Shown: piece by piece, positions 33,578 to 55,652 of the stretch | Layout of the letters: every line of letters begins with the position of its first letter | Position numbering within the stretch: position 1 is the stretch's first letter | Source of the DNA: Deltaproteobacteria bacterium GWA2_38_16 | GTDB lineage: Bacteria > Bdellovibrionota > JACOXK01 > 2-02-FULL-40-11 | Assembly: GCA_001797335.1 (NCBI GenBank) | Contig: MGPE01000005.1 | Location: 153,013 to 217,012 of the forward strand | DNA: 64,000 bases | Direction: 5' to 3' | Made by a program: the position numbers and the translations under genes | The notes under the pieces: generated by a model | Told to the model about the DNA's origin: nothing | The model's input: the letters and a program-made list of their open reading frames with translations, nothing else | Databases searched by the model: none

Positions 33578-33601
33578 TTTTCTGCCATCAAGGAGGAAAT
33601 A

Positions 33602-37402: not shown

Positions 37403-37405
37403 ATC

Positions 37406-37417
37406 TGATCAGTATCA
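37406..37417 (+). promoter_or_regulatory. FNR-like box (TGAT-N4-ATCA) upstream of the molybdoenzyme alpha gene
   Basis: cTGATcagtATCAt directly after the TauE stop codon, about 65 bp upstream of the likely alpha-subunit start. Confidence 0.4.
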
Positions 37418-37435
37418 TTTTTATCTCTACCGAAA

Positions 37436-40400
37436 TTGTGTAAATCTGCCACTTTAAGGCTTAAAAAATATGGAGGAAATATGACATATATCAGCCGAAG
37501 AAAGTTTTTAAAAGGTTTGGGGGCAGTAGGGACGTTATTAACCTCAGAAACTGTCTTTGGATCTCCTCTTCGATATTTTAAGCCTACCCATGTAGAAAAT
37601 CCCTTAGCATTTTATCCCAACCGGGATTGGGAAAAAGTATATCGAAATATTTTTAAACCTGATTCCACGTTTGTATTTTTGTGTGCTCCCAATGATACCC
37701 ATAACTGTCTTTTAAAAGCGTATGTCAAAAATAATGTGGCGGTTCGAATAGGTCCTACTTATGGATATGGAAAAGCACAAGATCTCTATGGGAATCAATC
37801 GTCTCATCGGTGGGATCCCAGGCTCTGTCAAAAAGGATTGGGATTAGTACGTAGGGTCTATGGGGATCGTCGTTTAAAATCCTCAATGATTCGACAAGGA
37901 TTTAAACAATGGGTAGAGGCTGGATTTCCCAGAGATCCCAAAACTGGAAAGCCGGATTTAAAATATTTTAATCGGGGACGAGATAAGTGGCTCAGAATTT
38001 CTTGGGATGAAGCATTTCAATTATCTGCCAAAGCTTTTTATAATATTGCACAAACCTATTCAGGCAAAGAAGGAGAAAAACGTTTAAAACTTCAAGGTTA
38101 TGATTCTGCGATGATTGAAGCGTTAGAAGGAGCAGGAACACAAACAATTAAAATCAGAGGGGGAATGGCATTTTTAGGATCTACACGAATTTTTGGAATG
38201 TATCGATTTGCCAATATGCTTGCGCTTTTAGATAGCAAAATTCGAGGAGTTGGGCCAGATCACGCCGTAGGAGCCAGAGGGTGGGATAGTTATAGTTGGC
38301 ATACAGATCTTCCACCAGGGCATCCCATGGTGACGGGTACTCAAACCAATGATTTTGATTTATTTGCCGTAGAACATTCAAAGCTTGCTATTGCCTGGGG
38401 GATGAATTGGATTACGACAAAAATGCCAGATTCCCATTGGTTGACGGAAGCCAGGCTCAAGGGAACTAAAACCGTGTCCATCACGGTTGAATACAGTGCA
38501 ACGGCTTCTAAAACCGATGACGTGATTGTTATTCGTCCAGGAACAGATCCAGCCTTTGCATTGGGATTGGCCCAAGTGATTATATCTGAAAAACTCTATG
38601 ATTTGGAGTTTGTATCCAAAAATACGGATCTTCCTTTTCTTATTCGATTAGATACCTTGGAGCCTCTTCGTCCCCAAGATATTATTCCGGGATATGTAGA
38701 GCCTCCTTTAAAAAATATTGTCTTTCTTAAAAAAGGAGAAAAACCCCCGGCAACCTCTACCCATCGCATTCAATATGCCACGGAAGAAATGAAGGATTCT
38801 TTTAAACCGTTTGTGATTGTTGATCAAAAAACCAAAAAATTAACACCGGTGACGAGAGACTCGTTCAGATCGGCAGATTTGTTTTCCAGTCGAACGGTGA
38901 AACTTTTAAATGGGAAGGAAATAAAAGTACAAACCGTGTTTGGGTTAATGAGAGACTATGTAAATCAAAATTTTACGCCTAAACAAACCGAACTTATTAC
39001 TGGTGCTCCTGAAAAAGCAATTATCTTATTAGCCAAACAAATTGCGGCTAATCCAGAAAAAACACTTTTTGTGACGGGTATGGGTCCAAACCAATTTTTT
39101 AATTCTGATTTAAAAGATCGGGCCATCTTTTTTGTGGCAGCCTTAACGCGAAATATTGGATTTCCAGGGGGTAATGTAGGAAGTTATGCTGGAAATTATA
39201 GAGCAGCATTGATTGGGGGAGAGCCCGTATTTGCTGCCGAAGATCCCTTTCATGTGCAACTCGATCCCAAAGGTAAGGTCATTGTTAAAAAATATACGCA
39301 TTATGAATCACTTCATTACTTTAATTATGGTGAGAGGCCGCTTAGGGGAGGGAAAACATTATTTACAGGGAAAAGTCATCTTCCAACTCCTACCAAAGCC
39401 ATGTGGCTCAATAATTCTAACTCTGTCATCGGAAATATTAAGTGGCATTTTGATGTGGTGAATAACACGCTTCCAAAGCTAGAGTTTATTGCATTTGCAG
39501 ATTGGTGGTGGACGGGTTCTTGTGAGTATGCTGATATTGTTTTTGGCGTCGACAGTTGGGCGGAGTTTAAAGTGCCTGATATGTGTGCTTCCTGTACCAA
39601 TCCTTTCCTTCATGTTTATCCCAGAACTCCTCTTCCCAGAATTTTTGATACGAAATCTGATATCGAAGTGATTGCAGGAGTATCAAAAGCGTTAGCCGAA
39701 GTAACCAATGATGCTCGAATGGTTGACATGTGGAAATTTGTTCATGAAGGGAATGTGCAAACATATCTTCAACGGATTATGGATCACTCTTTTACGCTCA
39801 AAGGGTATGATATTGATGATCTAGAGAAAAAAGCCCAAGAAGGAATTCCAACGCTCATGAATAATCGAACCTATCCTAGAATCTCTTCTTTTGAGCAGGC
39901 CACAGAAAAAGAACTTTGGTTTACGAAATCAGGTCGATTGGAATTTTATCGTCCTGAAAAAGAATTTATTGAGCATGGTGAAAATATGGTGGTGTATAGA
40001 GAACCTGTTGATTCAACGCCCTATGAACCCAATGTCATTGTAGCACATCCTCATGTGGCCATTCGTCCTAAAGGGCCCGAAGCACATGGGATGCAGTCGA
40101 GTGATCTTTCGTGTGAAAGTCGCCAAGTGCGAAATGTGATCAAAACGCCAGAAGAAGTAGTCAAAACAGAGCATCCTCTGCGTTCCAAAAAATTTACTCA
40201 CATTTATCATACGCCCAAATATCGACATGGAGCACACACGACTCCTGTTGATACTGATTTTACGGGAGTATGGTTTGGCCCTTTTGGTGATATTTATCGG
40301 CACGACAAACGTCAAGCCTCCGTGACCGAAGGATATGTAGATATAAATCCTTTAGATGCCAAAGAACTGGGGATTGAAGATGGGGATTATGTGCATATAG

Positions 40401-40924
40401 ATGCTGATCCCCAAGATCGTCCTTATAGAGGATGGAAAAAAGGGACTGAGTCTTATCATGTGGGGAGACTCCTTCTCAGGGCTCGTTATTATCCAGGGAC
40501 TCCCAGGGGAGTAGCTCGGACTTGGCACAATATGTATGGAGCTACTTTTGGAAGTGTGAAAGCTCATGAAACCCGGCCCGATGGACTCGCTAAAAATCCA
40601 GAGACAAATTACCAATCCATGTATCGCTATGGCAGTCATCAAAGTGCCACCCGGGCATGGCTACGGCCAACACTTATGACAGAAACATTGGTGAGAAAAG
40701 AAATGTTTGGAAATCAAATGGGCAAAGGATTTGCTGCAGATATTCATTGTCCCGTCGGAGCGCCTCGGGAAGCGTTTGTTAAAATTTCTAAAGCTGAGAA
40801 CGGGGGATTGGGAGGAAAAGGAAAGTGGGGGCCGGCACAGCTTGGATTTCGTCCCACCTATGAAAATGTAGCGATGAAGGAATATCTTAAAGGAAAATTT
40901 ATGAAACGAAAGAAGGAGATGTAA
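37436..40924 (+). CDS. Tat-exported molybdopterin oxidoreductase alpha subunit, type II DMSO reductase family (nitrite oxidoreductase NxrA-like / periplasmic NarG-like)
   Basis: Twin-arginine signal SRRKFLKG (probable start at Met16, about 37481); FS0 motif C-x3-D-x3-C...C followed by YVKNN (cf. NarG H-x3-C-x3-C..YVKNG); about 1150 aa. Confidence 0.8.
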
Positions 40925-40927
40925 AGC

Positions 40928-42058
40928 ATGGCAACAGTAAAAAATTGGCAACTGGATCGCCAAATGGATTATCCCTATGAAGAGCACCGACCTAAAAAAC
41001 AATGGGCCATTGTTTTTGATTTAAATAAATGCATTGGATGTCAAACCTGTTCCTTGGCCTGTAAAACCACTTGGACCAGTGGCAAAGGCCAAGAATATAT
41101 GTTTTGGAATAATGTGGAAACAAAACCTTGGGGCAGCTATCCCCTGGCGTGGGATGTCCGAGTACTTGAAAAATTGGGATATCAACACTGGGATAAAAAT
41201 AAACCCTATTCCGGAAAAACCGTTTTTGAAGCTGCTGATCCAGCAGAAAAAGCGGTTCATTTTAATCCTCAAGATGAAGATTGGATGTATCCAAACCGAG
41301 GAGAAGATGATTGTACAGGAAATGTCTCGGGTGGAAAATATTTGACATTACCCCACGACAATTGGTTTTTTTATCTTCCCAGAACCTGTGCACATTGTAC
41401 CTATCCTGCCTGTTTAGCAGCCTGCCCCAGAAAAGCGATTTATAAACGAGAAGAAGATGGTATTGTTCTGATCGATCAATCACGATGCAAAGGATACCAA
41501 GAATGTGTCAGGGCCTGTCCCTATAAAAAGTCTATGTATAATCCCTATACCCGAGTGAGTGAAAAATGTGTGGGGTGTTATCCGGCGGTAGAAGAGGGAA
41601 AGCAACCCATGTGTGTTCAAAATTGCATTGGGAAAATTCGTATTATGGGATTTATTAATCCTCCCTGGAATGCCAGAGAAGATAATCCTGTTGATTATCT
41701 GGTTCACAAAAAAGAATTAGCACTCCCGTATTATCCTCAGTTGGGACTTGAGCCGAATATTTATTATGTTCCTCCCATTCATGCCAATCGGGAGTATTTA
41801 ATTCAGATGTTTGGCCCAAAAGTAGAGGAGGTCATTGAAAATTATAAAAAAATTAAAAATGATCCTATTACCCAGGGACTTTTAGTGCTGATGGGATCTA
41901 CGGATAATATTATTCATCGTTTTAAAGTTTCTGAGGGATCAGCATATGCTTTTGATGAAAAAGGGGATCAAATTGTGAGAGTTCCAGTCACAGAGCCTTT
42001 ATTTATTCGAACCCCTTGGGATGAAAAACTGGGCGTTATTCGAAATAATACGCCCTAA
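40928..42058 (+). CDS. iron-sulfur beta subunit of the type II DMSOR-family enzyme (NxrB/NarH-like)
   Basis: Four ferredoxin-type Cys clusters (CIGCQTCSLAC; CAHCTYPACLAACP; CKGYQECVRACP; CVGCY...C); no signal peptide; immediately follows the alpha gene. Confidence 0.8.
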   Translation: MATVKNWQLDRQMDYPYEEHRPKKQWAIVFDLNKCIGCQTCSLACKTTWTSGKGQEYMFWNNVETKPWGSYPLAWDVRVLEKLGYQHWDKNKPYSGKTVFEAADPAEKAVHFNPQDEDWMYPNRGEDDCTGNVSGGKYLTLPHDNWFFYLPRTCAHCTYPACLAACPRKAIYKREEDGIVLIDQSRCKGYQECVRACPYKKSMYNPYTRVSEKCVGCYPAVEEGKQPMCVQNCIGKIRIMGFINPPWNAREDNPVDYLVHKKELALPYYPQLGLEPNIYYVPPIHANREYLIQMFGPKVEEVIENYKKIKNDPITQGLLVLMGSTDNIIHRFKVSEGSAYAFDEKGDQIVRVPVTEPLFIRTPWDEKLGVIRNNTP

Positions 42059-42962
42059 GAAAGAAGGTGTGAGGGGAATGATGAAGAAAATTTATGCTTT
42101 AATGGTTGTAAGTTATCTTTTATGGGGCCAGGGACTTTGGGCCGAAGGACTTATTGCAAAATATGTTAAAGAGGATCTCTCTAAACTAAATCTTGAAGCA
42201 CTGTTTTGGAAAGAGGTTACTCCAGAGACCATTCAGCTGATAGCTCAGCCCATGGTGGCCCCACGTCCTCAAAAAACATTGACGGAAAAACTTTGGGTAC
42301 AAGTGGTTCATAATGGAGAGTGGATGGCGTTTCGATTTAAATGGAAAGACAAAGAGAAGAGCGAAGCAGGACCTTTGGGTAAATTTTCGGATGCAGTGGC
42401 CATTCAATTTCCAGTGAAAGAAAAAGAAGTGCCCCCGATTTTTATGGGAGCCAAGGATAGCCCCGTTCATATTTTGCATTGGAGAGCACAGTATCAAAAA
42501 GACAAAGAAAAAGGATTCCAAACGATGAAAGATATTTATCCCAATATGAATATGGATATGTATCCTTTAGAATTTGCCAATCAATATTCTCATGATGAGA
42601 TGTTGAAAAAAATCACTGAGGAACAAAGAGAAGTGTTTGTGTCTGGAAAATCTGCTGGAAACCCTCAATCATTTCAAAAAATAAAAGGGGTGGATGAGAT
42701 GATGGCCGAAGGTTTTGGTTCCAGTTCTGTCATTGAAAATACGAGAGCAGAAGCTCAGGGGATATGGCAAAAAAAAGGAAAAGAAGGAGAATGGGTAGTG
42801 CAAATTTCTCGGCCCTTAGCTTTAGAAGGGGGATCTATCTTGAAAGCAGGGCAAAAAAGTTTTATGGCCTTTGCTGTGTGGCAGGGCGGAGAAGGGGAAG
42901 TGGGATGTCGAAAATCTGTGACGATGACCTGGGTACCCTTAATAATTGAGGATAAAAAATGA
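42021..42962 (+). CDS. periplasmic gamma subunit (heme b, EbdC/NxrC-like)
   Basis: Sec signal MMKKIYALMVVSYLLWGQGLWAEG (probable start at internal Met about 42078); position and size fit a gamma subunit. Confidence 0.6.
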   Translation: MKNWALFEIIRPKKEGVRGMMKKIYALMVVSYLLWGQGLWAEGLIAKYVKEDLSKLNLEALFWKEVTPETIQLIAQPMVAPRPQKTLTEKLWVQVVHNGEWMAFRFKWKDKEKSEAGPLGKFSDAVAIQFPVKEKEVPPIFMGAKDSPVHILHWRAQYQKDKEKGFQTMKDIYPNMNMDMYPLEFANQYSHDEMLKKITEEQREVFVSGKSAGNPQSFQKIKGVDEMMAEGFGSSSVIENTRAEAQGIWQKKGKEGEWVVQISRPLALEGGSILKAGQKSFMAFAVWQGGEGEVGCRKSVTMTWVPLIIEDKK

Positions 42963-43624
42963 TGCCTAAACCTACGGATTTTATCGTTGCTTCTTTTTTG
43001 ACCGCATATCCAGATAACTATTTTTGCGATAGCTTAAAGGACATCTTAAATTGTCAAAAACCCAAAGGTATTGATTCTTTCTATTTGGAGCTGAAATCTT
43101 ATATAGAAACACCTCAAAAACTAAATAATTTGCGTTCTGATTATATTGATATTTTTGATCATGGAAAAGAAATCAACTCTCCGTATGAAACGTCTTATGG
43201 GCCTTATAAGGGGATGAATAAGACCATCGATCTTTCAGATTTGATGGGATTTTACAAAGCGTTTGGATTTGAATTGGGAGTGGATGATAAAAGGCGAGAT
43301 ATGGCAGATCATGTTTCTGTTGAGCTTGAATTTTATGCGCTGTTGCTCATGAAAGAAGCCTATTTGAAAAAACACAATGATAAAGAAGGAACTGAAATTG
43401 TTTTAGATGCGTGTAAGAAATTTTTAAAAGATCATTTAGGAAGATTTATTTCAGCTATTGGCAATAGGCCCGCTGTTTTACAACATTCTTTTTATTCGAA
43501 AGTATTTGAGTGGAGTGCTGTTCTTGTTGCCGAAGAATGCAAAAGATTAAATGTTACGCCTACGCCTTTGTCTTACGATTCTCTGATATCCGAATCTGAA
43601 GATTTTAACTGTCGTTTTAAATAA
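42959..43624 (+). CDS. TorD/NarJ-family redox enzyme maturation chaperone
   Basis: 221-aa cytoplasmic protein, fourth gene of the operon; DHVSVELEFYALL resembles TorD/NarJ-family helices. Confidence 0.55.
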   Translation: MMPKPTDFIVASFLTAYPDNYFCDSLKDILNCQKPKGIDSFYLELKSYIETPQKLNNLRSDYIDIFDHGKEINSPYETSYGPYKGMNKTIDLSDLMGFYKAFGFELGVDDKRRDMADHVSVELEFYALLLMKEAYLKKHNDKEGTEIVLDACKKFLKDHLGRFISAIGNRPAVLQHSFYSKVFEWSAVLVAEECKRLNVTPTPLSYDSLISESEDFNCRFK

Positions 43625-47325: not shown

Positions 47326-47746
47326 ACTTAAAGATTGTTTTGAAAAGAAGTTTTTAGTCAGAACGCGCCCTGAACCTGAATTAGCTAAAAAATCTTTAAA
47401 ACGTGGTTTAGCAACGATTGAGGATGTACCCAAAGCTTTAAAAGCAGATTTAGATGAGCTGGCTGAACAAAGGCTGTATCAAAGTGTGTTCCATGGAGTA
47501 AAAGCATTACTCTATAAAGATGGCATTAAAGAAAGATCACATATTTGCGTCAGTTTATATTTTAAAGAAACGTATCAGAAGTTTTTTTCTAAAGATCTTT
47601 TAACCTTATTGGATCGATTAAGGGATGTTCGCCATGAATCTCAATATGGTCTTGATGCCGTTGCCATGAATTCAGAACAAATTCAAAATTGGTTAGCAGA
47701 GGCAGAACAACTTTTAAAAGTAATTTCTCAGCTTTTAAAATCGTAA
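47319..47746 (+). CDS. HEPN-domain protein, HepT-like toxin (probable TTG start)
   Basis: R-x4-HxxQY motif RDVRHESQYG; ORF track opens at 47258 but overlaps the MNT gene, so the start is inferred. Confidence 0.6.
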
Positions 47747-47768
47747 AGATGCAACGAGAGATAATAAA
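47735..47768. repeat. 34-bp perfect direct repeat, copy 2 (right boundary of the TA cassette; overlaps the 3' end of the porin-like gene)
   Basis: Identical to 46663..46696. Confidence 0.8.
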
Positions 47769-48958
47769 TTATCAGCAGTGTCGTTAATGCCTGATCCCTT
47801 GGTATAATTAATATCGTATCCTAATTTGAGGAGCATATTATCAGAGCATCGATATCCCCCACCAAAAGAATATCGGGAGTAAACGTTGGCCGTAACACTA
47901 TTTAAAGAAGCGGTGGTAGAAGCCCCTCTTAGTTTAATGGTACTAACGCGACCGGCCAGATAAAAATGAGACAAGACGTTCCATACATCCGGTAAATTCC
48001 ATAATGATTCTACAAAACCAAAATGAGCTTGTCTTTTTTGAGCATTCCCGCCGGTAGATCCATCTTTAAAAGCACCCAAAGAAAATCTAAAAAATGCCTG
48101 GCTATCAGAATATGCAGGAGGATTTAAAGGTTTTTTGCCTTTGCCTAAATCATATCTAAAATCTATTTCTGCCACCTGCCTTGTCCAATTTGTTGCACCG
48201 CTAGCAGGAGCTGTAATTCCTGCAATAGACATGTCTGCTGAAGATGCTTTTAATTTTCCAGAATGGTAGTAACTGGTGCTGATAAAGAGAGGATCTATCG
48301 GAGTGTAAAATAATCTTCCTAAAAAAGATTTTCCTTGGCCAGAATCCGATCCTACAACACTATTTCCATTTCCGACGGCTACAACCCATATTTTCCCTGA
48401 TAGCTCTATCCCCTCATCGGTGACGCCTACGTTTGCAGCTGAGTTAGAAGGAAGGATGCCTTCAACGACGTTATTGGTTTGGGTTTCTTCTCCAAAGGGC
48501 TGTTTAAATCTTCCCAGTCTGCCGCTTACATTAAACCACGTATTTCTTAAAGCGGGAATAAAATCTTTGGCTTGTAAAAATAAATAATCGACTAAAGGAG
48601 TGTTGTTCCCCCCATTATTTAAATTAAATCGAAAAGTAGCAGAATTGAAATCATCTGCCTGGAACATAAACACCAATTTTGCTTCAGGTACTTCAAAAGA
48701 ACCACTTCTAAAGCTAGAGGTTTGTCCTTGGGAATTATAAAAAGCACTTGCAGCTCTTCCGCTGAGCTTTAATTTAGAAAGCAGATTTGAAAGATCAACT
48801 TTGGGAGATTCTTCCCCATAGGCAAATGGGGATATGAATAAAGAAATTAAAATAATTGTTATGATGGAGTGTGGCTTCATAGAGTAATCCTTTCTTCTTT
48901 CCAGATGGGAGCTTGTTTTTTTAATTCGGCAATGACGTATTCGCAGGCTTTGAAACAC
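47735..48958 (-). CDS. outer-membrane beta-barrel porin-like protein
   Basis: Signal peptide MKPHSIITIILISLFISPFAYG (likely true start about 48880); alternating amphipathic strands; C-terminal SLRF with terminal Phe. Confidence 0.55.
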   Translation of the reverse strand: MFQSLRIRHCRIKKTSSHLERRKDYSMKPHSIITIILISLFISPFAYGEESPKVDLSNLLSKLKLSGRAASAFYNSQGQTSSFRSGSFEVPEAKLVFMFQADDFNSATFRFNLNNGGNNTPLVDYLFLQAKDFIPALRNTWFNVSGRLGRFKQPFGEETQTNNVVEGILPSNSAANVGVTDEGIELSGKIWVVAVGNGNSVVGSDSGQGKSFLGRLFYTPIDPLFISTSYYHSGKLKASSADMSIAGITAPASGATNWTRQVAEIDFRYDLGKGKKPLNPPAYSDSQAFFRFSLGAFKDGSTGGNAQKRQAHFGFVESLWNLPDVWNVLSHFYLAGRVSTIKLRGASTTASLNSVTANVYSRYSFGGGYRCSDNMLLKLGYDINYTKGSGINDTADNLLSLVASLRF

Positions 48959-49269
48959 TCTTTTCGATGTTCACCGGTAACGCCCATCCAAACCGCAATT
49001 TCTCCGAGTTGTAAGGTTCCTGTTCGATGATGAACATGAATGTCTAAAACAGAAAATTCTTTTTTGGCTTTATCAATTATTTTTTTTATTTCTTTAATCG
49101 CCATGGGCGTATAAGCTTCGTAATGGAGTTCTTTTACTTTTTTTCCTTTGTTCCATTGCCGAACCCAGCCTTCAAAGCTGACATAAGCGCCTGCCATGAT
49201 ATTTTTTCTTAATTTTTTAGAATGTATTGTGGGATTTAAAGGTTTGGTCCAAATTTTAACGATGGACAT
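48877..49269 (-). CDS. moaE: molybdopterin synthase catalytic subunit
   Basis: GAYVSFEGWVR...VHHRTGTLQLGE...APIWKEE. Confidence 0.85.
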   Translation of the reverse strand: MSIVKIWTKPLNPTIHSKKLRKNIMAGAYVSFEGWVRQWNKGKKVKELHYEAYTPMAIKEIKKIIDKAKKEFSVLDIHVHHRTGTLQLGEIAVWMGVTGEHRKECFKACEYVIAELKKQAPIWKEERITL

Positions 49270-49275
49270 AGTGTT

Positions 49276-49542
49276 TTATCCTCCTGCAACCGGAGGAATA
49301 AAACACACGGTATCCCCTTCTTTAAGAGAGGTATTAAAATGAGTATATGCTTCATTAATGGCAGCGGAAAGATAGGGAGTATCCAAAAAATGAGGATATT
49401 TTTTCTTAAGTTCCTGATGGAGTTCTAAAAGAGTGCTTTGATTGGGAAGGTCTATTTTTTCTTCTTTTTTTTGAGTGATGGTTTTTAAATGAGCAAAATA
49501 TAATACATTTACTTTCATGAGCTTTCGATTAACATGGGACAA
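49276..49542 (-). CDS. moaD: molybdopterin synthase sulfur-carrier subunit
   Basis: Small ubiquitin-like protein ending in Gly-Gly (PPVAGG); adjacent to moaE. Confidence 0.8.
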   Translation of the reverse strand: MSHVNRKLMKVNVLYFAHLKTITQKKEEKIDLPNQSTLLELHQELKKKYPHFLDTPYLSAAINEAYTHFNTSLKEGDTVCFIPPVAGG

Positions 49543-49554
49543 TTCTTTAAGAGT

Positions 49555-49568
49555 ATGACATAGATCAT
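49555..49568 (+). promoter_or_regulatory. FNR-like palindrome (ATGA-N6-TCAT) in the moaD / mobA-moaA divergent promoter
   Basis: ATGACATAGATCAT between divergent Moco genes; same architecture as the nirK boxes. Confidence 0.35.
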
Positions 49569-49611
49569 ATTTTTACCCAAAAGTCTATATAGAATACCTT
49601 TTTGTTTCAAG

Positions 49612-51165
49612 ATGAGCCATCATATAACATTAGCTATTTTAGTGGGGGGGGCTTCTCGTCGAATGGGGACTTCTCAAGACAAAGGGCTTTTATCTGTCCA
49701 TGGGGAGGCTTTAGTTTATCGTCTCATTAGAAAACTTTCTTTTTTATTTCAAGAAATCTTAATTATTTGTTCTTCGGAAACTCAAAAACAAAAATATGAT
49801 TTCGTGCTCGGAATGACACCTCAGATTATTGTGGATGAAAGTGGGAGTGATCGAGCGGCGTATTATGGACTGTGTGCAGCGCTTAAACAGAGTTCCACAG
49901 AAAAAGTGTTGGTGATTCCGGTAGATGCTCAAGGGGTGGATCCAGGTGTTATTAAAAAACTTCTATTGTCTCCCTCATTTCCTGTTGCCTATGAAAATAC
50001 ACCTTTCCCATCGGTGTGGCTCAAACAACATTTATCTTTTGTCATTCCGAGCACGAAGTGCGAGGAATCCCTAAGTATTTTAGATCTTTTGAAAAAACTT
50101 TCTACGACCTGGATACGTCCCACAGAGTGTGAAGACATACTTTTAAAAATGAATTTAAATACGAGAGAAGATGTTCGAAACTATTTTGGAGAGCCTCTGT
50201 GCGATTCTTGGGGGAGACAATTAAATTACTTAAGACTTTCTCTAACTGAATCGTGCAACATGGCATGCCAATATTGCTTGCCCAAAGGTTTTCATCAATC
50301 AACCCATGAACAGATGCTGACTCAAACCGCCCAGGTTATTTTAAAAGCGTTTCGAAAGTTAGGGTTTGAAAAAGTGCGTTTTACTGGCGGTGAGCCTACG
50401 CTTCATCCGGGACTTTTGTATCTTATTTCGGATGCTCGGTCCTTGGGATACGAAACTATTTCTCTCACTACCAATGGAAGTTTTATTCAAGATCTTACGT
50501 CTTTAATAGAGGCTGGGCTTACCCATATCAATATCAGTTTAGATACCCTAGATCCTACGACATTTCAAAAACTTACAGGGAGTCATTATCTATCTAAAAT
50601 TTTGGGTCTTATTGATGAGGCCTTAGAGAAGGGATTAAATGTAAAATTGAATACGGTTCTTCTTCGGGAGATTAATTTAAATCACATAGAACCATTACTC
50701 CATTGGGCGAAAGATCGCCCCTTAACCCTTCGGTTTATTGAACTTATGCCAATTCAAAATCACACAGAGTTTTTTAACAGAAATTTTGTTTCAAATACCG
50801 AAATTCAGTCTTTGGTTCGATCGTTGGGGTATGCGCCTATCTGTCATCCCCGACTTGATCGGGGATCCATGGAACCTTTAGGCCCCGCGGTTTTGTGGTC
50901 TCATCCAGAGTTTTTGGCCAAAGTAGGTTTTATCAGTCCTTGGTCGTGTAATTTCTGTGATCGCTGCAATCGATTGCGGGTGACTGCCAGAGCACATCTT
51001 CGTTTATGTTTATTTGGAAAAGAAGAGATAAAACTTCCGGCAGAACAAGGAGATGAAGTGGTGAGTCAATTTATTCGATCGGTTCTTCATCAAAAGCCCC
51101 TCTCGCATGATTTAGAAAAAGGGGATAGAGGAAGTTTAAGTTATTTTAAAGTAGTGGGAGGATAA
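49612..51165 (+). CDS. moaA: fused MobA-like molybdenum cofactor guanylyltransferase / MoaA GTP 3',8-cyclase (radical SAM)
   Basis: N-terminal AILVGGASRRMGTSQDKGLL (MobA motif); C-terminal CNMACQYC (CxxxCxxC) and auxiliary cluster cysteines CNFCDRCNR...C. Confidence 0.8.
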   Translation: MSHHITLAILVGGASRRMGTSQDKGLLSVHGEALVYRLIRKLSFLFQEILIICSSETQKQKYDFVLGMTPQIIVDESGSDRAAYYGLCAALKQSSTEKVLVIPVDAQGVDPGVIKKLLLSPSFPVAYENTPFPSVWLKQHLSFVIPSTKCEESLSILDLLKKLSTTWIRPTECEDILLKMNLNTREDVRNYFGEPLCDSWGRQLNYLRLSLTESCNMACQYCLPKGFHQSTHEQMLTQTAQVILKAFRKLGFEKVRFTGGEPTLHPGLLYLISDARSLGYETISLTTNGSFIQDLTSLIEAGLTHINISLDTLDPTTFQKLTGSHYLSKILGLIDEALEKGLNVKLNTVLLREINLNHIEPLLHWAKDRPLTLRFIELMPIQNHTEFFNRNFVSNTEIQSLVRSLGYAPICHPRLDRGSMEPLGPAVLWSHPEFLAKVGFISPWSCNFCDRCNRLRVTARAHLRLCLFGKEEIKLPAEQGDEVVSQFIRSVLHQKPLSHDLEKGDRGSLSYFKVVGG

Positions 51166-51168
51166 AAA

Positions 51169-51633
51169 ATGGGAGATTTTACTCATTTAAAAAAGGGAAA
51201 AGCCGTGATGGTGGATGTGACACAAAAAACTCCATCTGAGAGGATTGCAAAAAGTAAAGCTCATGTACAAACAGGATCTATCAATCTTAAAAAAGAATTA
51301 TCTCAAAAAGCACAGCAAGAATTGGCCTTAACTATTCGACTTTCGGCGATTCAAGCGGCTAAAAAAACATCTGAACTTATTCCTCTATGTCATCCTTTGT
51401 CTTTAAGTTTTGTAGAGTGTGAGGTGGAATTTAAGGAAAATAAAATTTTAATAATCTGTACGGCTAAAACAAAAAATACAACGGGGGTTGAAATGGAAGC
51501 TATGGTGGGAGCCTCGATCGGAGCATTAACGGCCTATGACATGATTAAGTCCAAGTGTCGTGATACATCGATTGAAAAAATTGAGTTAGTCTATAAAGAA
51601 GGAGGAAAATCAGGCGTATGGAAAAGAACATAA
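51169..51633 (+). CDS. moaC: cyclic pyranopterin monophosphate synthase
   Basis: 154 aa; conserved MoaC core (GVEMEAMVGASIGALTAYDM). Confidence 0.85.
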   Translation: MGDFTHLKKGKAVMVDVTQKTPSERIAKSKAHVQTGSINLKKELSQKAQQELALTIRLSAIQAAKKTSELIPLCHPLSLSFVECEVEFKENKILIICTAKTKNTTGVEMEAMVGASIGALTAYDMIKSKCRDTSIEKIELVYKEGGKSGVWKRT

Positions 51634-52118
51634 CATCCTATGTTATTGTGAGTTCTGATCGAGCATCCCAGGGAACCTATGAAGATAAGGCAGGCCCTGC
51701 TGCCCAAAATTGGCTGTGTAGCAATGGGTATAAAAATAAAGGAGTTGTCATTATCCCTGATAATCCAAAAATTCTTCGAGATAAACTTTTGGAGATATTA
51801 GAGACGGTAGACGTTGTGGTGGTGAGCGGAGGAACGGGTTTAGGCCCTCGGGATATTACTCCTCAAACATTACGTGATCTCTCAGACTATGAAATTCCAG
51901 GATTTGGAGAAAGATTAAGACAAGAAAGTTTAAAATATTCTTTGAATAGTTATTTATCCCGGTGTGGAGGGTATGTGAAAAATGATAAACTTATTTTAGC
52001 CCTGCCAGGAAATCCAAAAGCGGTGACAGAGCAACTTGATATTCTTTCAGAACTTCTTCCCAATGCGGTGTGTGCGCTTCGAGGGGAATGTAAACATAGG
52101 AATCGAACATCCTCATGA
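51618..52118 (+). CDS. mog: molybdopterin adenylyltransferase (MogA/MoaB family)
   Basis: VVVVSGGTGLGPRDITPQ motif. Confidence 0.8.
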   Translation: MEKNITSYVIVSSDRASQGTYEDKAGPAAQNWLCSNGYKNKGVVIIPDNPKILRDKLLEILETVDVVVVSGGTGLGPRDITPQTLRDLSDYEIPGFGERLRQESLKYSLNSYLSRCGGYVKNDKLILALPGNPKAVTEQLDILSELLPNAVCALRGECKHRNRTSS

Positions 52119-53302
52119 TTACCTACGAAGAAGCCTTAGCTTTATTTTCACGCCTTCCGTCGATAAAAGAGGTTACTACAGTACCTCTTCAAAAATCATT
52201 GGGATGTGTATTGGCCAAAGATCTTTTGGCTCCTTGTTCACTCCCACTTTTTAACAATAGTGCGATGGATGGGGTGGCGCTTCGATTATCAGATCTTCGA
52301 TCTGAAATCAGGATAGCAGGAACGAGATTGGCTCAAAGGGTGAAAGATTCATTAGATCATCCTCGCACGAAAGCCATTCGAATCATGACGGGAGCCAAAG
52401 TGCCTTCCTGGGCAGAACTGGTGGTTCCGATAGAGAAGATTGAAGGGATCAAAGAAAATGTTATTCGAGTGGCAGCCGGTTTATTTAATAAAGGAGAGAA
52501 CATTCGTTTTTCTGGAGAAGATTATCAAAAAGGAGAGCTTATTTTTAAAAAAGGGCACTTCTTAAATGCAGAGGCGTTGATGGTATTGGCCAATTTTGGA
52601 ATTCAAAAAGTAGAGGTATTTAAAAAGCCGGCTCTCTGGCTTTTAACGACGGGAAATGAAGTAAAGCGTGTAGGCTCCAAGCTTTTTGATGGGGAAATTT
52701 ATAATTCTTCTCAAATTTATTTAAAGACAAAAATAAGAGAATTAGAACTGCCTCTTAAAAAATATATTCATATGAAGGATCAAAAAGAAAAACTAAAGTC
52801 TTTTTTAAAAACATGGCTAAAGTCCAAAGGTCCCTCCCTTTTGGTGACAACCGGAGCCGTATCGATGGGAGATAAAGATGATTTTCCAAAACTGGCCCAG
52901 GAACTGGGGCTTCATCTTTATTTTCATAAAGTAGCTATTCGCCCTGGAAAGCCCGTTTTATTTTGCTCGGATGAAAAAGATCACTATTGGATTGGAGCGC
53001 CAGGGAATGCTATTGCCACAGCTGTTGCCTGGACATTTTTTGTAAGGCCTTTTTTACACAGCTGGGGGAAGTTTCCTTTGCCCCACACTACTCAAGTGAC
53101 TCTTGCCGAGGATTTTAAAAAGCCCCTTGGGATTAAAACTTTTTTTAGAGGATATTGTGATGGAGAAAAAGTTATCTTAGCCAAAGATCAAGGCTCTCAG
53201 CGGATGAAAGCATCTGCCACAAGTAATGTGTTTGTGGAGCTTCGCCAAGATCAGGAGGTGGTGATTCAGGGTAGCAAAGTCACCTGTACATGGTTATGTT
53301 AA
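52115..53302 (+). CDS. moeA: molybdopterin molybdenumtransferase
   Basis: 395 aa; MoeA N-terminal region (NSAMDGVA) and MoCF-biosynthesis domain (LLVTTGAVSMGDKD). Confidence 0.85.
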   Translation: MITYEEALALFSRLPSIKEVTTVPLQKSLGCVLAKDLLAPCSLPLFNNSAMDGVALRLSDLRSEIRIAGTRLAQRVKDSLDHPRTKAIRIMTGAKVPSWAELVVPIEKIEGIKENVIRVAAGLFNKGENIRFSGEDYQKGELIFKKGHFLNAEALMVLANFGIQKVEVFKKPALWLLTTGNEVKRVGSKLFDGEIYNSSQIYLKTKIRELELPLKKYIHMKDQKEKLKSFLKTWLKSKGPSLLVTTGAVSMGDKDDFPKLAQELGLHLYFHKVAIRPGKPVLFCSDEKDHYWIGAPGNAIATAVAWTFFVRPFLHSWGKFPLPHTTQVTLAEDFKKPLGIKTFFRGYCDGEKVILAKDQGSQRMKASATSNVFVELRQDQEVVIQGSKVTCTWLC

Positions 53303-54414
53303 AACGATATCGACCTCATCTTTTACTCTCTGGTTTTGGACTAGAAGAGCAAAAAAAATTACACTCAGCCAAGGTTTTGGTTATTGGAGCTGGAGGATTA
53401 GGATGCCCTTTGCTTTTATATTTAACGGCAGCAGGAGTGGGAACCATCGGCATTGTCGATAGTGATTCTGTAGAAGAAAGTAATCTCCAACGCCAAATTT
53501 TATATACGGAAGCAGATCTTGGAAAATTAAAGGTCGATGTTGCTCGAAAAAGACTTTCTTTGTTAAATTCCAAGACGGAATTTGTACTCTATCCCCATCG
53601 GTTTACAGTACAGAATGCTTTAGAAATCATAAAACCCTATGATGTTATTTGCGATGGCACGGATAATTTTCAAACTCGTTATATGATTAATGATGCCTGT
53701 GTCCTTCTTAATAAACCGGATGTCTATGCTTCTATTTTTCAATTTGAAGGGCAGGTGACGGTATTTAATTATGTTAATAAAGAGGGAGTAAGAGGCCCTC
53801 ATTACAGGGATCTTTTTCCCGTATTTCCTCCTCAAGATCTTCTCCCTAATTGTGAAGCAGCAGGGGTGCTCGGAGTTTTGCCAGGAATCATGGGGACGAT
53901 TCAAGCCAATGAAGTGATTAAAATCATTACAGGAATAGGAGAAGTACTTTCCGGTAGACTTTTAACGATGAATACCCTAAACTTTGAAACTCATATTTTA
54001 ACGTTACCCAACGCTAAAGGAGGACAAACGATGGTGACTAAATTAGAAGAAAATCCACAAGCTTCATGTTGCGAAATTGGGAAAGGGAAAAAAGAGGTTC
54101 CTGAAGTGACGGTTCAAGAATTAAAAGCCAAAAGAGATCATCATGAAAATTTTCAATTGATCGATGTCAGAGAAAAAAATGAATATGAATTTGTGAATAT
54201 TCAAGGAGATCTTATTCCTCTGGGAGAGCTTGAACGTTCACTTTCTAAAATTTCTAAGGAAAAAACAGTGATTGTGCATTGCCGAAGTGGTGGGAGAAGT
54301 TCTCAGGCTGTGAAGCTTTTACGAGAAAAATTTGGGTATACCAATGTCTATAATCTAAAAGGCGGAATTCTAGCCTATATAGATGAAATTGATCCTTCCT
54401 TACCTAAATACTAG
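53290..54414 (+). CDS. moeB: molybdopterin-synthase adenylyltransferase with C-terminal rhodanese domain (MoeB/MoeZ-like)
   Basis: ThiF fold VLVIGAGGLGCPLLLYL; C-terminal rhodanese active-site loop CRSGGRS. Confidence 0.8.
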   Translation: MVMLKRYRPHLLLSGFGLEEQKKLHSAKVLVIGAGGLGCPLLLYLTAAGVGTIGIVDSDSVEESNLQRQILYTEADLGKLKVDVARKRLSLLNSKTEFVLYPHRFTVQNALEIIKPYDVICDGTDNFQTRYMINDACVLLNKPDVYASIFQFEGQVTVFNYVNKEGVRGPHYRDLFPVFPPQDLLPNCEAAGVLGVLPGIMGTIQANEVIKIITGIGEVLSGRLLTMNTLNFETHILTLPNAKGGQTMVTKLEENPQASCCEIGKGKKEVPEVTVQELKAKRDHHENFQLIDVREKNEYEFVNIQGDLIPLGELERSLSKISKEKTVIVHCRSGGRSSQAVKLLREKFGYTNVYNLKGGILAYIDEIDPSLPKY

Positions 54415-54485: not shown

Positions 54486-54938
54486 ATGACGCCTGAAGTG
54501 TTAGCCCCAACCTTTAAATTTAGCCATCCTATTCGTGTCCGGCAAGGCGAGACTGATGCGCAGGGACGTGTATTGTGTCCCATGTTTTGTGTCTATCGGG
54601 AGGCAGCTCGGACAGAGTATTTTAGGAACTTGAAGTTTTCCTATCCTGAGCAGTGGAAGAGTAATTTTCACCATGTCATGACGATAGGCTCTTGCCATAA
54701 TGAAAAACGGCAAGCCCATTTTGATGATGAGCTTTTAATTTTTGCTAAAATTTCTGCCATTCAAAAAACGAATTTTACTTTTTCATTTGAGATCTATCAA
54801 AAAGCAGGAGGGCAGCTTATTTCTAAGGCCACCTCGACCCATGCGGTCATTGATCCTAAAAAATGGGCTATTATCCGGGTGCCTGACTTTTTTAGAGAGA
54901 TTGTAAGTCAATTTGAAAATCAAAAATTTATGATTTGA
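54486..54938 (+). CDS. hotdog-fold acyl-CoA thioesterase (YbgC/4HBT-like)
   Basis: 150 aa; VRQGETDAQGRV pattern typical of 4HBT thioesterases. Confidence 0.55.
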   Translation: MTPEVLAPTFKFSHPIRVRQGETDAQGRVLCPMFCVYREAARTEYFRNLKFSYPEQWKSNFHHVMTIGSCHNEKRQAHFDDELLIFAKISAIQKTNFTFSFEIYQKAGGQLISKATSTHAVIDPKKWAIIRVPDFFREIVSQFENQKFMI

Positions 54939-54953
54939 ATCATAATCCGAAGT

Positions 54954-55652
54954 GTGCTAGGGTTTGGCTCGCTTATGGAAATCAAACGGTCTATCGACTG
55001 TAATCAGTGCCATCCCCGCCAGCATAGTATTTTTTGTCAGCTTTCTGATGACAAGCTGCATTATCTCAAAGATTTTAAGATTACTAAAACCTATAAGAAG
55101 CGTGAAATTGTATTTCATGAGGGAGATAAACCTCATGGCCTTTTTTGTGTGTTTTCGGGGCTTGTGAAAATCTCAAAAGTATCTTCGGATGGGAAAGAAC
55201 AAATTGTAAGACTGGCTCAAAGTGGGGATGTGTTGGGGTATCGAGCATTTTTCTCTAGTGAATTTTATTCTGCAACGGCTCAGGCCATTACAGAATCAAA
55301 TATTTGTTTTATTGAACGCGAAGGAATGGAAAAAATCATTCAGCATTCTCCGGAGCTTATTTATTCATTCTTAAGAAAAGTGTGTTTTGAGTTAAGACAA
55401 GCAGAAGAAAAATTTCAAGACCTCATGGAAAAAAGTGTGGAAGAAAGACTGGCTAATTTTTTAAAACTTTTGTTAGGAAAAACGAAGACAAAAACCTTTG
55501 ATCTACCCTTATCCAGGGAAGAAATTGCTTCCCTTATTGGAGCGCGTCAGGAAACTGTGATTCGGGTATTTTCTTCTTGGAAAGATCAAGGGTACTTAAA
55601 AGTCCATGCAAAATCCCTGACACTGCTAGATTCTTCTTTTCTCGTTCACTAA
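54954..55652 (+). CDS. CRP/FNR-family transcriptional regulator with N-terminal Cys cluster (FNR-type sensor)
   Basis: N-terminal CNQCHPRQHSIFC; cNMP-binding-like barrel; C-terminal HTH (SREEIASLIGARQETVIRV). Confidence 0.75.
   Translation: MLGFGSLMEIKRSIDCNQCHPRQHSIFCQLSDDKLHYLKDFKITKTYKKREIVFHEGDKPHGLFCVFSGLVKISKVSSDGKEQIVRLAQSGDVLGYRAFFSSEFYSATAQAITESNICFIEREGMEKIIQHSPELIYSFLRKVCFELRQAEEKFQDLMEKSVEERLANFLKLLLGKTKTKTFDLPLSREEIASLIGARQETVIRVFSSWKDQGYLKVHAKSLTLLDSSFLVH

What the first reader, a model, noticed from the sequence alone, without database searches (positions are those of the whole stretch)
48877..54414. Complete molybdenum cofactor pathway next to the molybdoenzyme, including a MobA::MoaA fusion
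moaD and moaE are divergent from a mobA-moaA fusion, moaC, mog, moeA and moeB(rhodanese). A guanylyltransferase (last step, bis-MGD formation) fused to the radical SAM cyclase (first step) is unusual. Location beside the DMSOR-family operon suggests a self-contained module.
Basis: partly seen in the sequence, partly recalled or inferred. Interest (0 to 1): 0.45.

Follow-up and report, generated by a model that had tools for sequence, protein, structure and literature searches.

The report
Fused MobA–MoaA molybdenum cofactor enzyme
One real gene in an uncultured groundwater bacterium joins the enzyme for the last step of molybdenum-cofactor synthesis (MobA) to the enzyme for the first step (MoaA); the fusion is rare and appears undescribed, but it is made of two ordinary, well-understood parts.

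Summary
Window 48877-54414 encodes moaE and moaD (minus strand), divergent from mobA::moaA, moaC, mog/moaB, moeA and moeB-rhodanese. These are all the core enzymes for bis-MGD cofactor.

The 517-aa fusion is not an artefact:
- The identical protein is on at least 19 contigs read from several ENA and NCBI assemblies.
- About 50 homologues (37-62% identity) have the same architecture.
- A junction-specific DNA pattern found 12 species-representative MAGs, each with a fused ORF inside a Moco operon. One is labelled Oligoflexia.

Both halves keep their catalytic signatures. AlphaFold gives pLDDT 90.8 and pTM 0.93, with the halves matching E. coli MobA and S. aureus MoaA.

The fusion is rare: about four full-length clusters at 50% identity among 1.84 billion representatives. 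It was absent from the literature searched.

Related lineages carry a decayed MobA half, MoaA alone or MobA alone, so the halves are separable. I read it as a plain bifunctional enzyme.

Adjacency to the DMSO-reductase-family operon is loose (5.2 kb of unrelated genes) and was not seen in most relatives examined. However, a palindrome, ATGAY-N4-RTCAT, marks the nirK, molybdoenzyme, Moco and fnr-like promoters (5 exact copies against 0.38 expected).

The parts
49612..51165 (+). mobA::moaA fusion gene, 517 aa. The MobA-type guanylyltransferase domain is about aa 1-190 (49612-50181). A short junction 'YFGEP' follows, with no linker. The MoaA GTP 3',8-cyclase is aa 196-517 (50197-51162).
   Evidence: Pfam and NCBIfam. 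Architecture repeated in about 50 homologues. AF2 pLDDT 90.8, pTM 0.93. Foldseek: MoaA 1tv7/2fb2 and MobA 1fr9/1h4c. Invariant C215/C219/C222, C449/C452/C466 and G516-G517. L10, G12, G13, R17, D23, K24, G25, D75, G86, D105, N181 and N183 are at least 94% conserved.
49276..49518 (-). moaD (MPT synthase small subunit), 80 aa from ATG 49518. The mechanical ORF extends to TTG 49542.
   Evidence: TIGR01682, 73.6 bits, above the 66.15 cut-off. Called as 80 aa in other assemblies.
48877..49269 (-). moaE (MPT synthase catalytic subunit)
   Evidence: PF02391, 8.5e-35.
49555..49568 (.). Palindrome ATGACATAGATCAT (ATGAY-N4-RTCAT) at the centre of the 93-bp divergent moaD<>mobA::moaA promoter region; candidate Crp/Fnr-family operator.
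   Evidence: Five exact copies in the window against 0.38 expected. Conserved at the same place in L005, L010 and L020, with one exact copy near the moaD/fusion boundary in L019, while the flanks diverge.
51169..51633 (+). moaC (cPMP synthase)
   Evidence: PF01967, 2.2e-36.
51618..52118 (+). mog/moaB-type MPT adenylyltransferase
   Evidence: PF00994, 3e-27. TIGR00177, 108 bits, above the 85.35 cut-off.
52115..53302 (+). moeA (molybdenum insertase)
   Evidence: MoeA_N + MoCF_biosynth + MoeA_C. NF007960, 253.6 bits, below the 440 cut-off.
53290..54414 (+). moeB with C-terminal rhodanese domain (MoaD adenylyltransferase/sulfurtransferase, MoeZ-like)
   Evidence: ThiF 1.7e-74 + Rhodanese 1.1e-15.
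54975..55652 (+). FNR-like Crp/Fnr-family regulator, with N-terminal C-x2-C-x8-C plus a central Cys, and 'ETVIR' in the HTH. It is preceded by a copy of the box at 54930-54943.
   Evidence: Pfam cNMP_binding + HTH_Crp_2. The best NCBIfam hit is Fnr, 91 bits, below the 228 cut-off. Sequence; box. Synteny with the Moco operon and the box is kept in L005/L006.
54486..54938 (+). YbgC/4HBT-type thioesterase lying between moeB and the fnr-like gene. It is syntenic in the 58%-identical relative. Its role in the cluster is unknown.
47735..48880 (-). 381-aa secreted protein with a C-terminal Phe; candidate outer-membrane beta-barrel. Its ATG overlaps the moaE stop codon (ATGA).
   Evidence: Sequence. 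No family hit. Homologues lie directly after moeA in L005/L006 (52% identity) and L019.
36662..43624 (+). tauE-like gene followed by a Tat-exported type II DMSO-reductase-family enzyme: alpha 37436-40924 (SRRKFLK signal), beta 40928-42058, EB_dh haem-b gamma 42021-42962, NarJ-like chaperone 42959-43624. This is the likely client of the bis-MGD cofactor. A box copy lies at 36662-36675.
33539..35008 (+). Two box copies (33539-33552 and 33564-33577) upstream of nirK (ATG 33602), a copper nitrite reductase with a C-terminal cytochrome c domain.
   Evidence: TIGR02376, 354 bits, above the 296.3 cut-off. Boxes.

Best explanation
The gene encodes a genuine bifunctional Moco-biosynthesis enzyme.

The C-terminal two thirds are a canonical MoaA. 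This radical-SAM enzyme has two [4Fe-4S] clusters and converts GTP to 3',8-cH2GTP, which the next gene's product, MoaC, turns into cPMP.

The N-terminal third is a divergent but catalytically intact MobA. It uses GTP and Mg2+ to add GMP to Mo-MPT, giving the bis-MGD cofactor required by the Tat-exported type II DMSO-reductase-family enzyme 6 kb upstream.

The two halves are joined without a linker and are predicted to pack in a fixed orientation. Even so, they act as independent catalytic modules. The fusion mainly guarantees equimolar co-expression of the only mobA in the operon with moaA.

The fusion probably arose once in an uncultured lineage within or near Bdellovibrionota/Oligoflexia. 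It was later trimmed in lineages that lost one of the two needs.

The operon is probably switched on together with nirK and the molybdoenzyme by the FNR-like regulator encoded at its 3' end. That regulator would act through the ATGAY-N4-RTCAT box in the divergent promoter.

Shown here: gene structure, domain identity, conservation, distribution and motif enrichment. Inferred: both enzymatic activities, independence of the two halves, and the regulation.
For: Domain identity and signatures
- Domain calls.
- In 51 aligned full-length fusions the MoaA signatures are invariant: CX3CX2C (C215/C219/C222), CX2CX13C (C449/C452/C466) and the terminal GG.
- The MobA signature L-x-G-G...R..G...DKG, D75, G86, D105, N181-x-N183 is kept in 49-50 of 51.
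- PDB sequence hits for the N-domain are only MobA structures (2e8b 5.7e-7; E. coli 1fr9/1e5k about 2e-3).
- AF2 model: pLDDT 90.8, pTM 0.93.
- Foldseek: S. aureus MoaA TMt 0.76-0.81 and E. coli MobA TMt 0.71-0.77.

Not an artefact
- The identical protein is on at least 19 contigs from several ENA and NCBI assemblies.
- 12 of 12 junction-pattern hits in GTDB representatives are fused ORFs of 505-540 aa in Moco operons, with one cut by a contig end.

Need for MobA
- No other NTP_transf_3 gene is in the window.
- A bis-MGD-type enzyme with a Tat signal and a NarJ-like chaperone is present.

Separability of the halves
- P0055 keeps a full-length N-domain that has lost every catalytic residue, in an operon lacking moaC-mog-moeA.
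- Stand-alone MoaA genes are nested in the fusion clade in the same moaD-moaE-moaA position.
- A stand-alone MobA of the fusion's own N-domain type sits in x-mobA-moaC-mog-moeA.

Regulation
- Five exact boxes against 0.38 expected, none inside the body of a gene: four in promoter gaps, and one (36662) overlapping the annotated tauE start codon.
- The box is conserved in orthologous promoters.
- The canonical FNR box is not enriched.
Against: - No activity has been measured.
- The N-domain scores far below NCBIfam's curated MobA cut-offs (54 vs 164 bits). MoaA scores just below its cut-off (279 vs 284.05).
- I could not scan the whole genome, so a second stand-alone mobA or moaA elsewhere is not excluded.
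- The high pTM and the absent linker show the halves are not loosely tethered, which leaves room for functional coupling that I could not examine. No coordinates or PAE were available.
- The single-origin inference rests on an unbootstrapped NJ tree.
- Assigning the box to this particular regulator is inference only.
Confidence: 0.8

Rival explanations
1. The N-terminal domain is not, or not only, a catalyst. It would be a ligand-sensing or scaffolding module that couples the first committed step to the state of the end of the pathway. For example, Mo-MPT, MGD or GTP occupancy could modulate MoaA, or the domain could dock MoaA to MoeA and the NarJ-like chaperone in a biosynthetic complex.
For: - There is no linker, and the junction 'YFG' is highly conserved.
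- AF2 pTM of 0.93 for the whole two-domain chain implies a fixed interface.
- Both halves bind GTP (established knowledge of MobA and MoaA).
- One lineage (P0055) keeps a full-length N-domain after losing all catalytic residues.
- An analogous MobB::MoaA fusion exists (P0256).
Against: - Catalytic residues are under strong purifying selection in 49-50 of 51 members, which pure scaffolding would not require.
- MoaA-only and MobA-only descendants exist in the same operon positions, so neither half depends on the other.
- The P0055 case fits ordinary decay on the way to deletion.
Confidence: 0.12
2. The N-terminal domain is a MobA-like nucleotidyltransferase of a different specificity, for example a MocA-type cytidylyltransferase making MCD, or another NTP_transf_3 enzyme.
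For: All MobA model scores are well below the curated cut-offs. NTP_transf_3 is a broad family. One clade-2 N-domain shows a weak hit to PucB, a xanthine dehydrogenase accessory protein (2e-4).
Against: - MobA models rank first to sixth, and MocA scores 25.9 vs 54.4 bits.
- The motif is L-x-G-G as in MobA, not T-A-A-G as recalled from memory for MocA.
- The C-terminal N-x-N-T motif aligns with A. aeolicus MobA (2e8b) over the full domain.
- The nearest non-fused homologues are all annotated as MobA.
- The neighbouring enzyme is of the bis-MGD (DMSOR) family, and the window has no xanthine-oxidase-family gene.
Confidence: 0.05
3. The long ORF is an assembly or sequencing artefact, such as a frameshift or chimeric join of adjacent mobA and moaA genes.
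For: NCBI holds a 338-aa version of the same protein starting at Met180. The window comes from a metagenome-assembled genome.
Against: - The 338-aa version examined comes from a contig that starts mid-gene, and the frame upstream is open.
- The identical 517-aa product is on at least 19 contigs from different samples and assemblers.
- About 50 diverged homologues and 12 species representatives share the fused architecture and a conserved junction.
Confidence: 0.01

Closest known systems
Stand-alone MobA (E. coli MobA, PDB 1fr9/1e5k; A. aeolicus 2e8b)
   Same: Same fold (TMt 0.71-0.77). Same signature residues: L-x-G-G, R, DKG, Asp/Gly in the nucleotide pocket, the Mg-binding Asp in 'PVD', and the C-terminal N-x-N-T. 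Same predicted reaction.
   Different: About 20% identity. Below the NCBIfam MobA cut-offs. Covalently joined at its C-terminus to MoaA with no linker.
Stand-alone MoaA (S. aureus MoaA, PDB 1tv7/2fb2; TIGR02666)
   Same: 28-30% identity and TMt 0.76-0.81. Both Cys triads and the C-terminal GG tail are present, and Mob_synth_C is present. It is followed by moaC, as is usual.
   Different: Carries a 195-aa N-terminal MobA domain. Scores 279 bits against the equivalog cut-off of 284.05.
Catalogued Moco fusion proteins: MoaC/MobA (NF011070/PRK14500; described for Synechocystis in PMC7133116), MobA/MobB (NF011056; Geobacter GSU3147, PMC2700814), MoaC/MoaB, MobB/MoeA
   Same: Same principle: two Moco-pathway enzymes in one chain. 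MoaC/MobA likewise joins a cPMP-stage enzyme to the last-step guanylyltransferase. In Geobacter, mobA-mobB lies next to moaA (PMC2700814), which is the kind of adjacency a fusion could start from.
   Different: None of these NCBIfam fusion models joins MobA to MoaA. The fusion here is named 'hypothetical protein', 'radical SAM protein' or 'cyclic pyranopterin phosphate synthase' by its sources. No paper in the library mentions it.
MobB::MoaA fusion
   Same: An MGD-step protein sits N-terminal to a complete MoaA.
   Different: The N-terminal partner is the MobB GTPase, not MobA. Its MoaA branches outside the MobA::MoaA clade in the NJ tree, so it is an independent event.

Membership tests
MobA (molybdenum cofactor guanylyltransferase) | MobA-like NTP-transferase domain (Pfam PF12804) above the gathering score | tested here: met
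   67 bits against a cut-off of 27, aa 8-118.
MobA (molybdenum cofactor guanylyltransferase) | Score above the curated NCBIfam equivalog cut-offs (NF001457, TIGR02665) | tested here: not met
   54.4 vs 164 bits and 51.3 vs 151.85 bits for the isolated domain. MobA models are nevertheless the six best hits.
MobA (molybdenum cofactor guanylyltransferase) | Signature residues: N-terminal L-x-G-G...R..G..DKG, conserved Asp/Gly of the nucleotide pocket, Mg-binding Asp, C-terminal N-x-N(T) of the MPT-binding half | tested here: met
   L10, G12, G13, R17, G19, D23, K24, G25, D75, G86, D105, N181, N183 are present in the window protein and in 49-50 of 51 relatives. Aligned to MobA structures.
MobA (molybdenum cofactor guanylyltransferase) | MobA fold | tested here: met
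   Foldseek to 1fr9 TMt 0.77 (rmsd 3.1 over 190 columns); 1h4c 0.73. Model pLDDT 90.8.
MobA (molybdenum cofactor guanylyltransferase) | GTP:Mo-MPT guanylyltransferase activity and guanine (not cytosine) specificity | not testable with these tools
   Indirect evidence only: MobA outranks MocA (54.4 vs 25.9 bits), and a bis-MGD-type client enzyme is nearby.
MoaA (GTP 3',8-cyclase) | Radical-SAM CX3CX2C cluster motif | tested here: met
   C215-N-M-A-C219-Q-Y-C222, invariant in 51 of 51.
MoaA (GTP 3',8-cyclase) | Second, C-terminal [4Fe-4S] motif CX2CX13C within Mob_synth_C | tested here: met
   C449, C452, C466 invariant. PF06463, 82.4 bits against 37.4.
MoaA (GTP 3',8-cyclase) | C-terminal Gly-Gly tail | tested here: met
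   The protein ends ...KVVGG. G516 and G517 are invariant.
MoaA (GTP 3',8-cyclase) | Score above the TIGR02666 equivalog cut-off | tested here: inconclusive
   279.0 vs 284.05 bits, narrowly below. Fold match to 1tv7/2fb2 has TMt 0.76-0.81.
Catalogued bifunctional Moco proteins (MoaC/MobA PRK14500; MobA/MobB PRK14489) | Both partner domains of the named fusion present | tested here: not met
   Only the MobA part aligns to these models (NF011056 aa 5-117). moaC is a separate gene at 51169-51633. No MobB domain is present.
FNR-type regulator (for the gene at 54975-55652) | Crp/Fnr fold, plus an N-terminal Cys cluster with a central Cys, plus score above the Fnr model cut-off | tested here: inconclusive
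   cNMP_binding + HTH_Crp_2 are present. C-x2-C-x8-C and a central Cys are present. The score is 91 vs 228 bits. The box differs from TTGAT-N4-ATCAA, which is not enriched.
Type II DMSO-reductase family enzyme (client of the cofactor) | Alpha/beta/haem-b gamma/chaperone gene set with a Tat signal on alpha | tested here: met
   The TIGR03479/03478/03477/03482 subfamily models are the best hits for the four genes, although all are below cut-off. EB_dh and Nitrate_red_del Pfam domains are present. The signal is SRRKFLK. The substrate was not determined.

The most novel reading that the evidence does not exclude
The rigid, linker-less MobA::MoaA chain could be a functional coupling device rather than a mere co-expression trick. 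The MobA half, which binds Mo-MPT/MGD and GTP, would gate or feed back on the radical-SAM first step. Alternatively, it would anchor MoaA in a Moco 'metabolon' with MoeA and the NarJ-like chaperone. Either way, cPMP synthesis would be matched to demand for bis-MGD during FNR-controlled anaerobic respiration.
Probability: 0.1. Interest if true: 0.55.

Novelty: new variant of a known kind. Interest (0 to 1): 0.3.

Why it matters
Gene fusions are classic evidence for functional or physical association. A stable fusion of the last and first enzymes of Moco synthesis, kept over 37-62% sequence divergence, adds to the hints that the pathway works as an organised complex.

It also offers a natural single-chain construct for studying MobA and MoaA together. 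The decayed, MoaA-only and MobA-only relatives provide built-in controls.

Practically, the family is mis-annotated in public databases as 'hypothetical protein', 'radical SAM protein' or 'cyclic pyranopterin phosphate synthase'. Pathway reconstructions for these uncultured Oligoflexia-like bacteria would therefore wrongly report mobA, and hence bis-MGD enzymes, as unsupported.

The biochemistry of each half is textbook, so the gain is modest.

Tried and rejected
- Frameshift or misassembly: rejected.
- Moco riboswitch or any Rfam family across 36-56 kb: none at E<=1. The 93-bp divergent gap is also too short for one.
- Sigma-70 promoter and terminator scan: no excess over shuffles, so uninformative.
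- Canonical FNR box TTGAY-N4-RTCAA: 2 copies against 0.63 expected, not at relevant promoters. The enriched box is the ATGAY variant.
I replaced it with a hand-built degenerate junction pattern, validated locally and then scanned. That pattern needs N-x-N-T...[YF][YF]G...D...R...YL exactly, so it undercounts the family.
- Word-index homologue search with the plain N-domain: returned nothing, not even itself. The profile version returned mostly distant stand-alone MobA.
- Single-sequence AlphaFold of the 381-aa secreted ORF: pLDDT 30, unusable.
- 'MoaA depends structurally on the N-domain': considered because of P0055, and down-weighted because MoaA-only genes sit in the same clade and operon position.
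- Conserved adjacency of the Moco operon to this DMSOR operon: not seen in most relatives examined.
- I could not obtain PAE or coordinates, so I did not analyse the inter-domain interface.

Full report
**What is there**

- moaE lies at 48877-49269 and moaD at 49276-49518/49542, both on the minus strand.
- On the plus strand, divergent from them, lie a 517-aa ORF (49612-51165), moaC (51169-51633), a mog/moaB-type gene (51618-52118), moeA (52115-53302) and moeB with a rhodanese domain (53290-54414).
- The genes overlap or are separated by a few bases, as expected for an operon.
- Every core enzymatic step from GTP to bis-MGD is therefore represented.
- MobB and ModABC are not in the 64-kb window. 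The rest of the window holds nuo genes, a pyruvate:ferredoxin oxidoreductase, tig-clpP and other housekeeping genes.

**The fusion is real**

- The 517-aa ORF carries NTP_transf_3 (aa 8-118; the MobA model NF001457 aligns over aa 7-189). Radical_SAM and Mob_synth_C follow, and the MoaA model TIGR02666 aligns over aa 196-504.
- The window matches NCBI record DOGW01000008.1 of assembly GCA_003528305.1, a 'Deltaproteobacteria bacterium' MAG. The product is HBQ21034.1, labelled 'hypothetical protein'.
- Exactly the same protein is on at least 19 contigs read from several ENA and NCBI assemblies, including an 'ANAN16' ENA scaffold of 313 kb.
- The only conflicting record is a 338-aa NCBI protein starting at Met180. 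In the contig examined it comes from a contig that begins inside the gene, and the upstream frame is open.
- A homology search found about 50 clusters (90% identity level) of 500-563 aa with the same three Pfam domains, at 37-62% identity to the window protein.
- I built a degenerate DNA pattern for the junction (N-x-N-T-x6-[YF][YF]G-x4-D-x3-R-x3-Y-L). It hits the window once, against 0.00 expected.
- The same pattern found 12 species-representative genomes, all of them MAGs. They are labelled Pseudomonadota, Proteobacteria or Deltaproteobacteria bacterium, or simply uncultured bacterium or proteobacterium. One is labelled Pseudobacteriovorax antillogorgiicola, which is Bdellovibrionota, class Oligoflexia.
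- All 12 carry a fused ORF of 505-540 aa (one is cut by a contig end) inside a Moco operon.

**Both halves look functional**

- In an alignment of 51 full-length members, several MoaA features are invariant: the radical-SAM triad C215/C219/C222, the second-cluster triad C449/C452/C466, and the C-terminal G516-G517.
- In the MobA half, L10, G12, G13, R17, D23, K24, G25, D75, G86, D105, N181 and N183 are kept in 49-50 of 51.
- The MobA half evolves faster than the MoaA half (mean pairwise identity 35% against 54%).
- Scanned alone, the N-domain hits six MobA models first (best 54.4 bits). MocA scores 25.9 bits. All are well below the curated cut-offs.
- Against PDB sequences, the N-domain matches only MobA structures.
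- AlphaFold with the 51-sequence alignment gives mean pLDDT 90.8 and pTM 0.93.
- Foldseek matches the C-terminal part to S. aureus MoaA (1tv7/2fb2, TMt 0.76-0.81) and the N-terminal part to E. coli MobA (1fr9 TMt 0.77, 1h4c 0.73).
- There is no linker. The MobA 'N-x-N-T' motif is followed by six residues and a conserved 'YFG', then immediately by the MoaA N-terminal 'D..GR..YLR'.

**How rare it is, and how it evolved**

- A profile of the 51 fusions was searched against 1.84 billion representatives (50% identity clusters of about 15 billion proteins).
- It returned only about four full-length fusion representatives (P0134, P0002, P0055, P0012) plus fragments. Essentially all other top hits are 310-350-aa stand-alone MoaA.
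- One unrelated long hit, P0256, is a MobB::MoaA fusion.
- An NJ tree of the MoaA halves places all fusions in one clade, with a few stand-alone MoaA nested inside. The tree has no support values.
- Three of those nested genes were checked in context. They are complete 325-332-aa genes in the usual position after moaE, preceded by moaD in two of the three contigs, with no mobA next door.
- P0055, from a contig labelled as a marine metagenome, keeps a full-length N-domain in which every catalytic position has changed. That domain matches no family. Its operon lacks moaC-mog-moeA.
- P0057 has the same thioredoxin-moaD-moaE context without the N-domain.
- Conversely, P0278 is a 221-aa stand-alone MobA of the fusion's own N-domain type, sitting in x-mobA-moaC-mog-moeA.
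- Together these fit one ancient fusion followed by decay or loss of either half. They show that neither half needs the other.
- Gene order differs between two sub-clades. The window's close relatives have moaE-moaD divergent from fusion-moaC-mog-moeA. The larger clade has moaD-moaE-(small rhodanese)-fusion-moaC-mog-moeA.

**Relation to the molybdoenzyme**

- Upstream lie nirK, a copper nitrite reductase with a cytochrome c domain (354 bits, above the cut-off), and a NirV/SCO1-like fusion protein.
- Next comes a tauE-like gene, then a type II DMSO-reductase-family enzyme made of alpha, beta, an EB_dh haem-b gamma subunit and a NarJ-like chaperone. The alpha subunit has the twin-arginine signal SRRKFLK.
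- This enzyme class uses bis-MGD (established knowledge of the family), so a MobA activity is needed.
- The two clusters are not contiguous. The 5.2 kb between them hold a GMC oxidoreductase, a small ORF, a tocopherol-cyclase-like gene, a small membrane protein, an NTase/HEPN pair and a secreted 381-aa protein.
- In the 58%-identical relative, the Moco operon is flanked by POR and multihaem cytochrome genes instead.
- None of the 12 GTDB loci shows this alpha subunit within its 8-kb window.
- In one distant member, a different 685-aa DMSOR-family gene plus modA/modB follow moeA directly.
- The 'module' idea therefore holds only loosely at the level of gene order.

**A regulatory link**

- The 93-bp gap between moaD and the fusion holds the palindrome ATGACATAGATCAT.
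- The pattern ATGAY-N4-RTCAT occurs exactly five times in the 64 kb, against 0.38 expected; none of 100 shuffles reached five.
- The five copies are: two upstream of nirK (ATG 33602), one at the start of tauE/DMSOR, one in the Moco divergent promoter, and one just upstream of the Crp/Fnr-family gene that ends the Moco cluster.
- The box is conserved in the orthologous Moco promoter of the close relatives L005, L010 and L020 while the flanks diverge. L019 has one exact copy near its moaD/fusion boundary. The box is also kept upstream of the orthologous crp/fnr gene in L005.
- The regulator has an N-terminal C-x2-C-x8-C, a central Cys and 'ETVIR' in its recognition helix. Its best family match is Fnr, below the cut-off.
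- The canonical TTGAT-N4-ATCAA box is not enriched.
- No riboswitch or other Rfam family is present.
- I infer oxygen-responsive co-regulation of nirK, the molybdoenzyme and Moco synthesis. This is a prediction, not a demonstration.

**Comparison with known systems, and novelty**

- Fusions among Moco enzymes are common and catalogued. NCBIfam has models for MoaC/MobA, MobA/MobB, MoaC/MoaB and MobB/MoeA.
- The Synechocystis MoaC is described as bifunctional with the MGD step (PMC7133116).
- Geobacter has mobA-mobB adjacent to moaA (PMC2700814).
- A comparative-genomics survey of molybdenum utilisation reports domain fusions only for the molybdoenzymes themselves (PMC6147048).
- No paper in the searchable library mentions a MobA-MoaA fusion. 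Its database names are generic.
- I therefore class it as a new variant of a known kind. It is a real, conserved and rare domain architecture built from two textbook enzymes. Its most likely meaning is simple co-expression, and the chance of functional coupling is small (about 0.1).

Noticed in passing
window 47735-48880 (-); L005/L006 13735-14835; L019 1-396: A 381-aa protein has a signal peptide (MKPHSIITIILISLFISPFAYG) and a C-terminal Phe, is rich in S, G and N, and matches no Pfam or NCBIfam family. Its ATG overlaps the moaE stop codon (ATGA). Homologues (52% and 49% identity) sit directly after moeA in relatives, so it is a conserved but mobile member of these Moco clusters. It is a candidate outer-membrane beta-barrel, possibly an oxyanion or molybdate channel. 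Single-sequence AlphaFold failed (pLDDT 30).
   Followed up: partly
window 33539-33552, 33564-33577, 36662-36675, 49555-49568, 54930-54943: The palindrome ATGAY-N4-RTCAT occurs five times exactly (0.38 expected): upstream of nirK (two copies), at the tauE-DMSOR operon start, in the Moco divergent promoter and upstream of the fnr-like gene. It is conserved in orthologous promoters of relatives. A one-mismatch copy at 10834-10849 lies in the gap upstream of the fused nuoCD gene.
   Followed up: partly
L021 10001-11557 (P0055); L025 6001-6993 (P0057); L027 397-1062 (P0278): Natural dissections of the fusion occur in relatives. One is a full-length but catalytically dead MobA domain fused to MoaA, on a contig labelled marine metagenome. 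One is MoaA alone in the same thioredoxin-moaD-moaE context. One is a stand-alone MobA of the fusion's own N-domain type in the position where the fusion normally sits.
   Followed up: partly
P0256 (from; no locus fetched): A 500-aa MobB::MoaA fusion (MobB aa 13-136, MoaA aa 175-500). It is an independent example of an MGD-step protein fused N-terminally to MoaA.
   Followed up: no
window 43573-46718 (-); L010 1-895; L019 5290-8001: A GMC oxidoreductase and a tocopherol-cyclase-like gene (weak Pfam hit, 8e-6) lie next to moaD/moaE in the window. The tocopherol-cyclase-like gene recurs in L010 and L019 (59% and 50% identity), and the GMC gene recurs in L019 (62%). This suggests a conserved neighbouring cluster of unknown function.
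   Followed up: no
window 46771-47746 (+): A nucleotidyltransferase/HEPN gene pair (toxin-antitoxin-like) lies between the tocopherol-cyclase-like cluster and the Moco cluster. It was not seen in the relatives' loci examined.
   Followed up: no
window 33602-36150 (+): nirK carries a C-terminal cytochrome c domain. It is followed by a single ORF combining an FGE-sulfatase (NirV-like) domain with a SCO1/SenC copper-chaperone domain.
   Followed up: no
window 49672-49680 (fusion aa 21-23): The window protein has a two-residue insertion (T-S) in the MobA glycine-rich loop ('RRMGTSQDKGLL'), where every aligned relative has 'RMG-QDKGLL'. The effect is unknown, and the flanking catalytic residues are intact.
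   Followed up: no
public records for this gene (HBQ21034.1, OGP05582.1, MBI3016959.1): The fusion is annotated as 'hypothetical protein', 'radical SAM protein' or 'cyclic pyranopterin phosphate synthase'. One deposited version is a 338-aa truncation caused, in the contig examined, by a contig edge. The MobA function is invisible in current annotations.
   Followed up: yes
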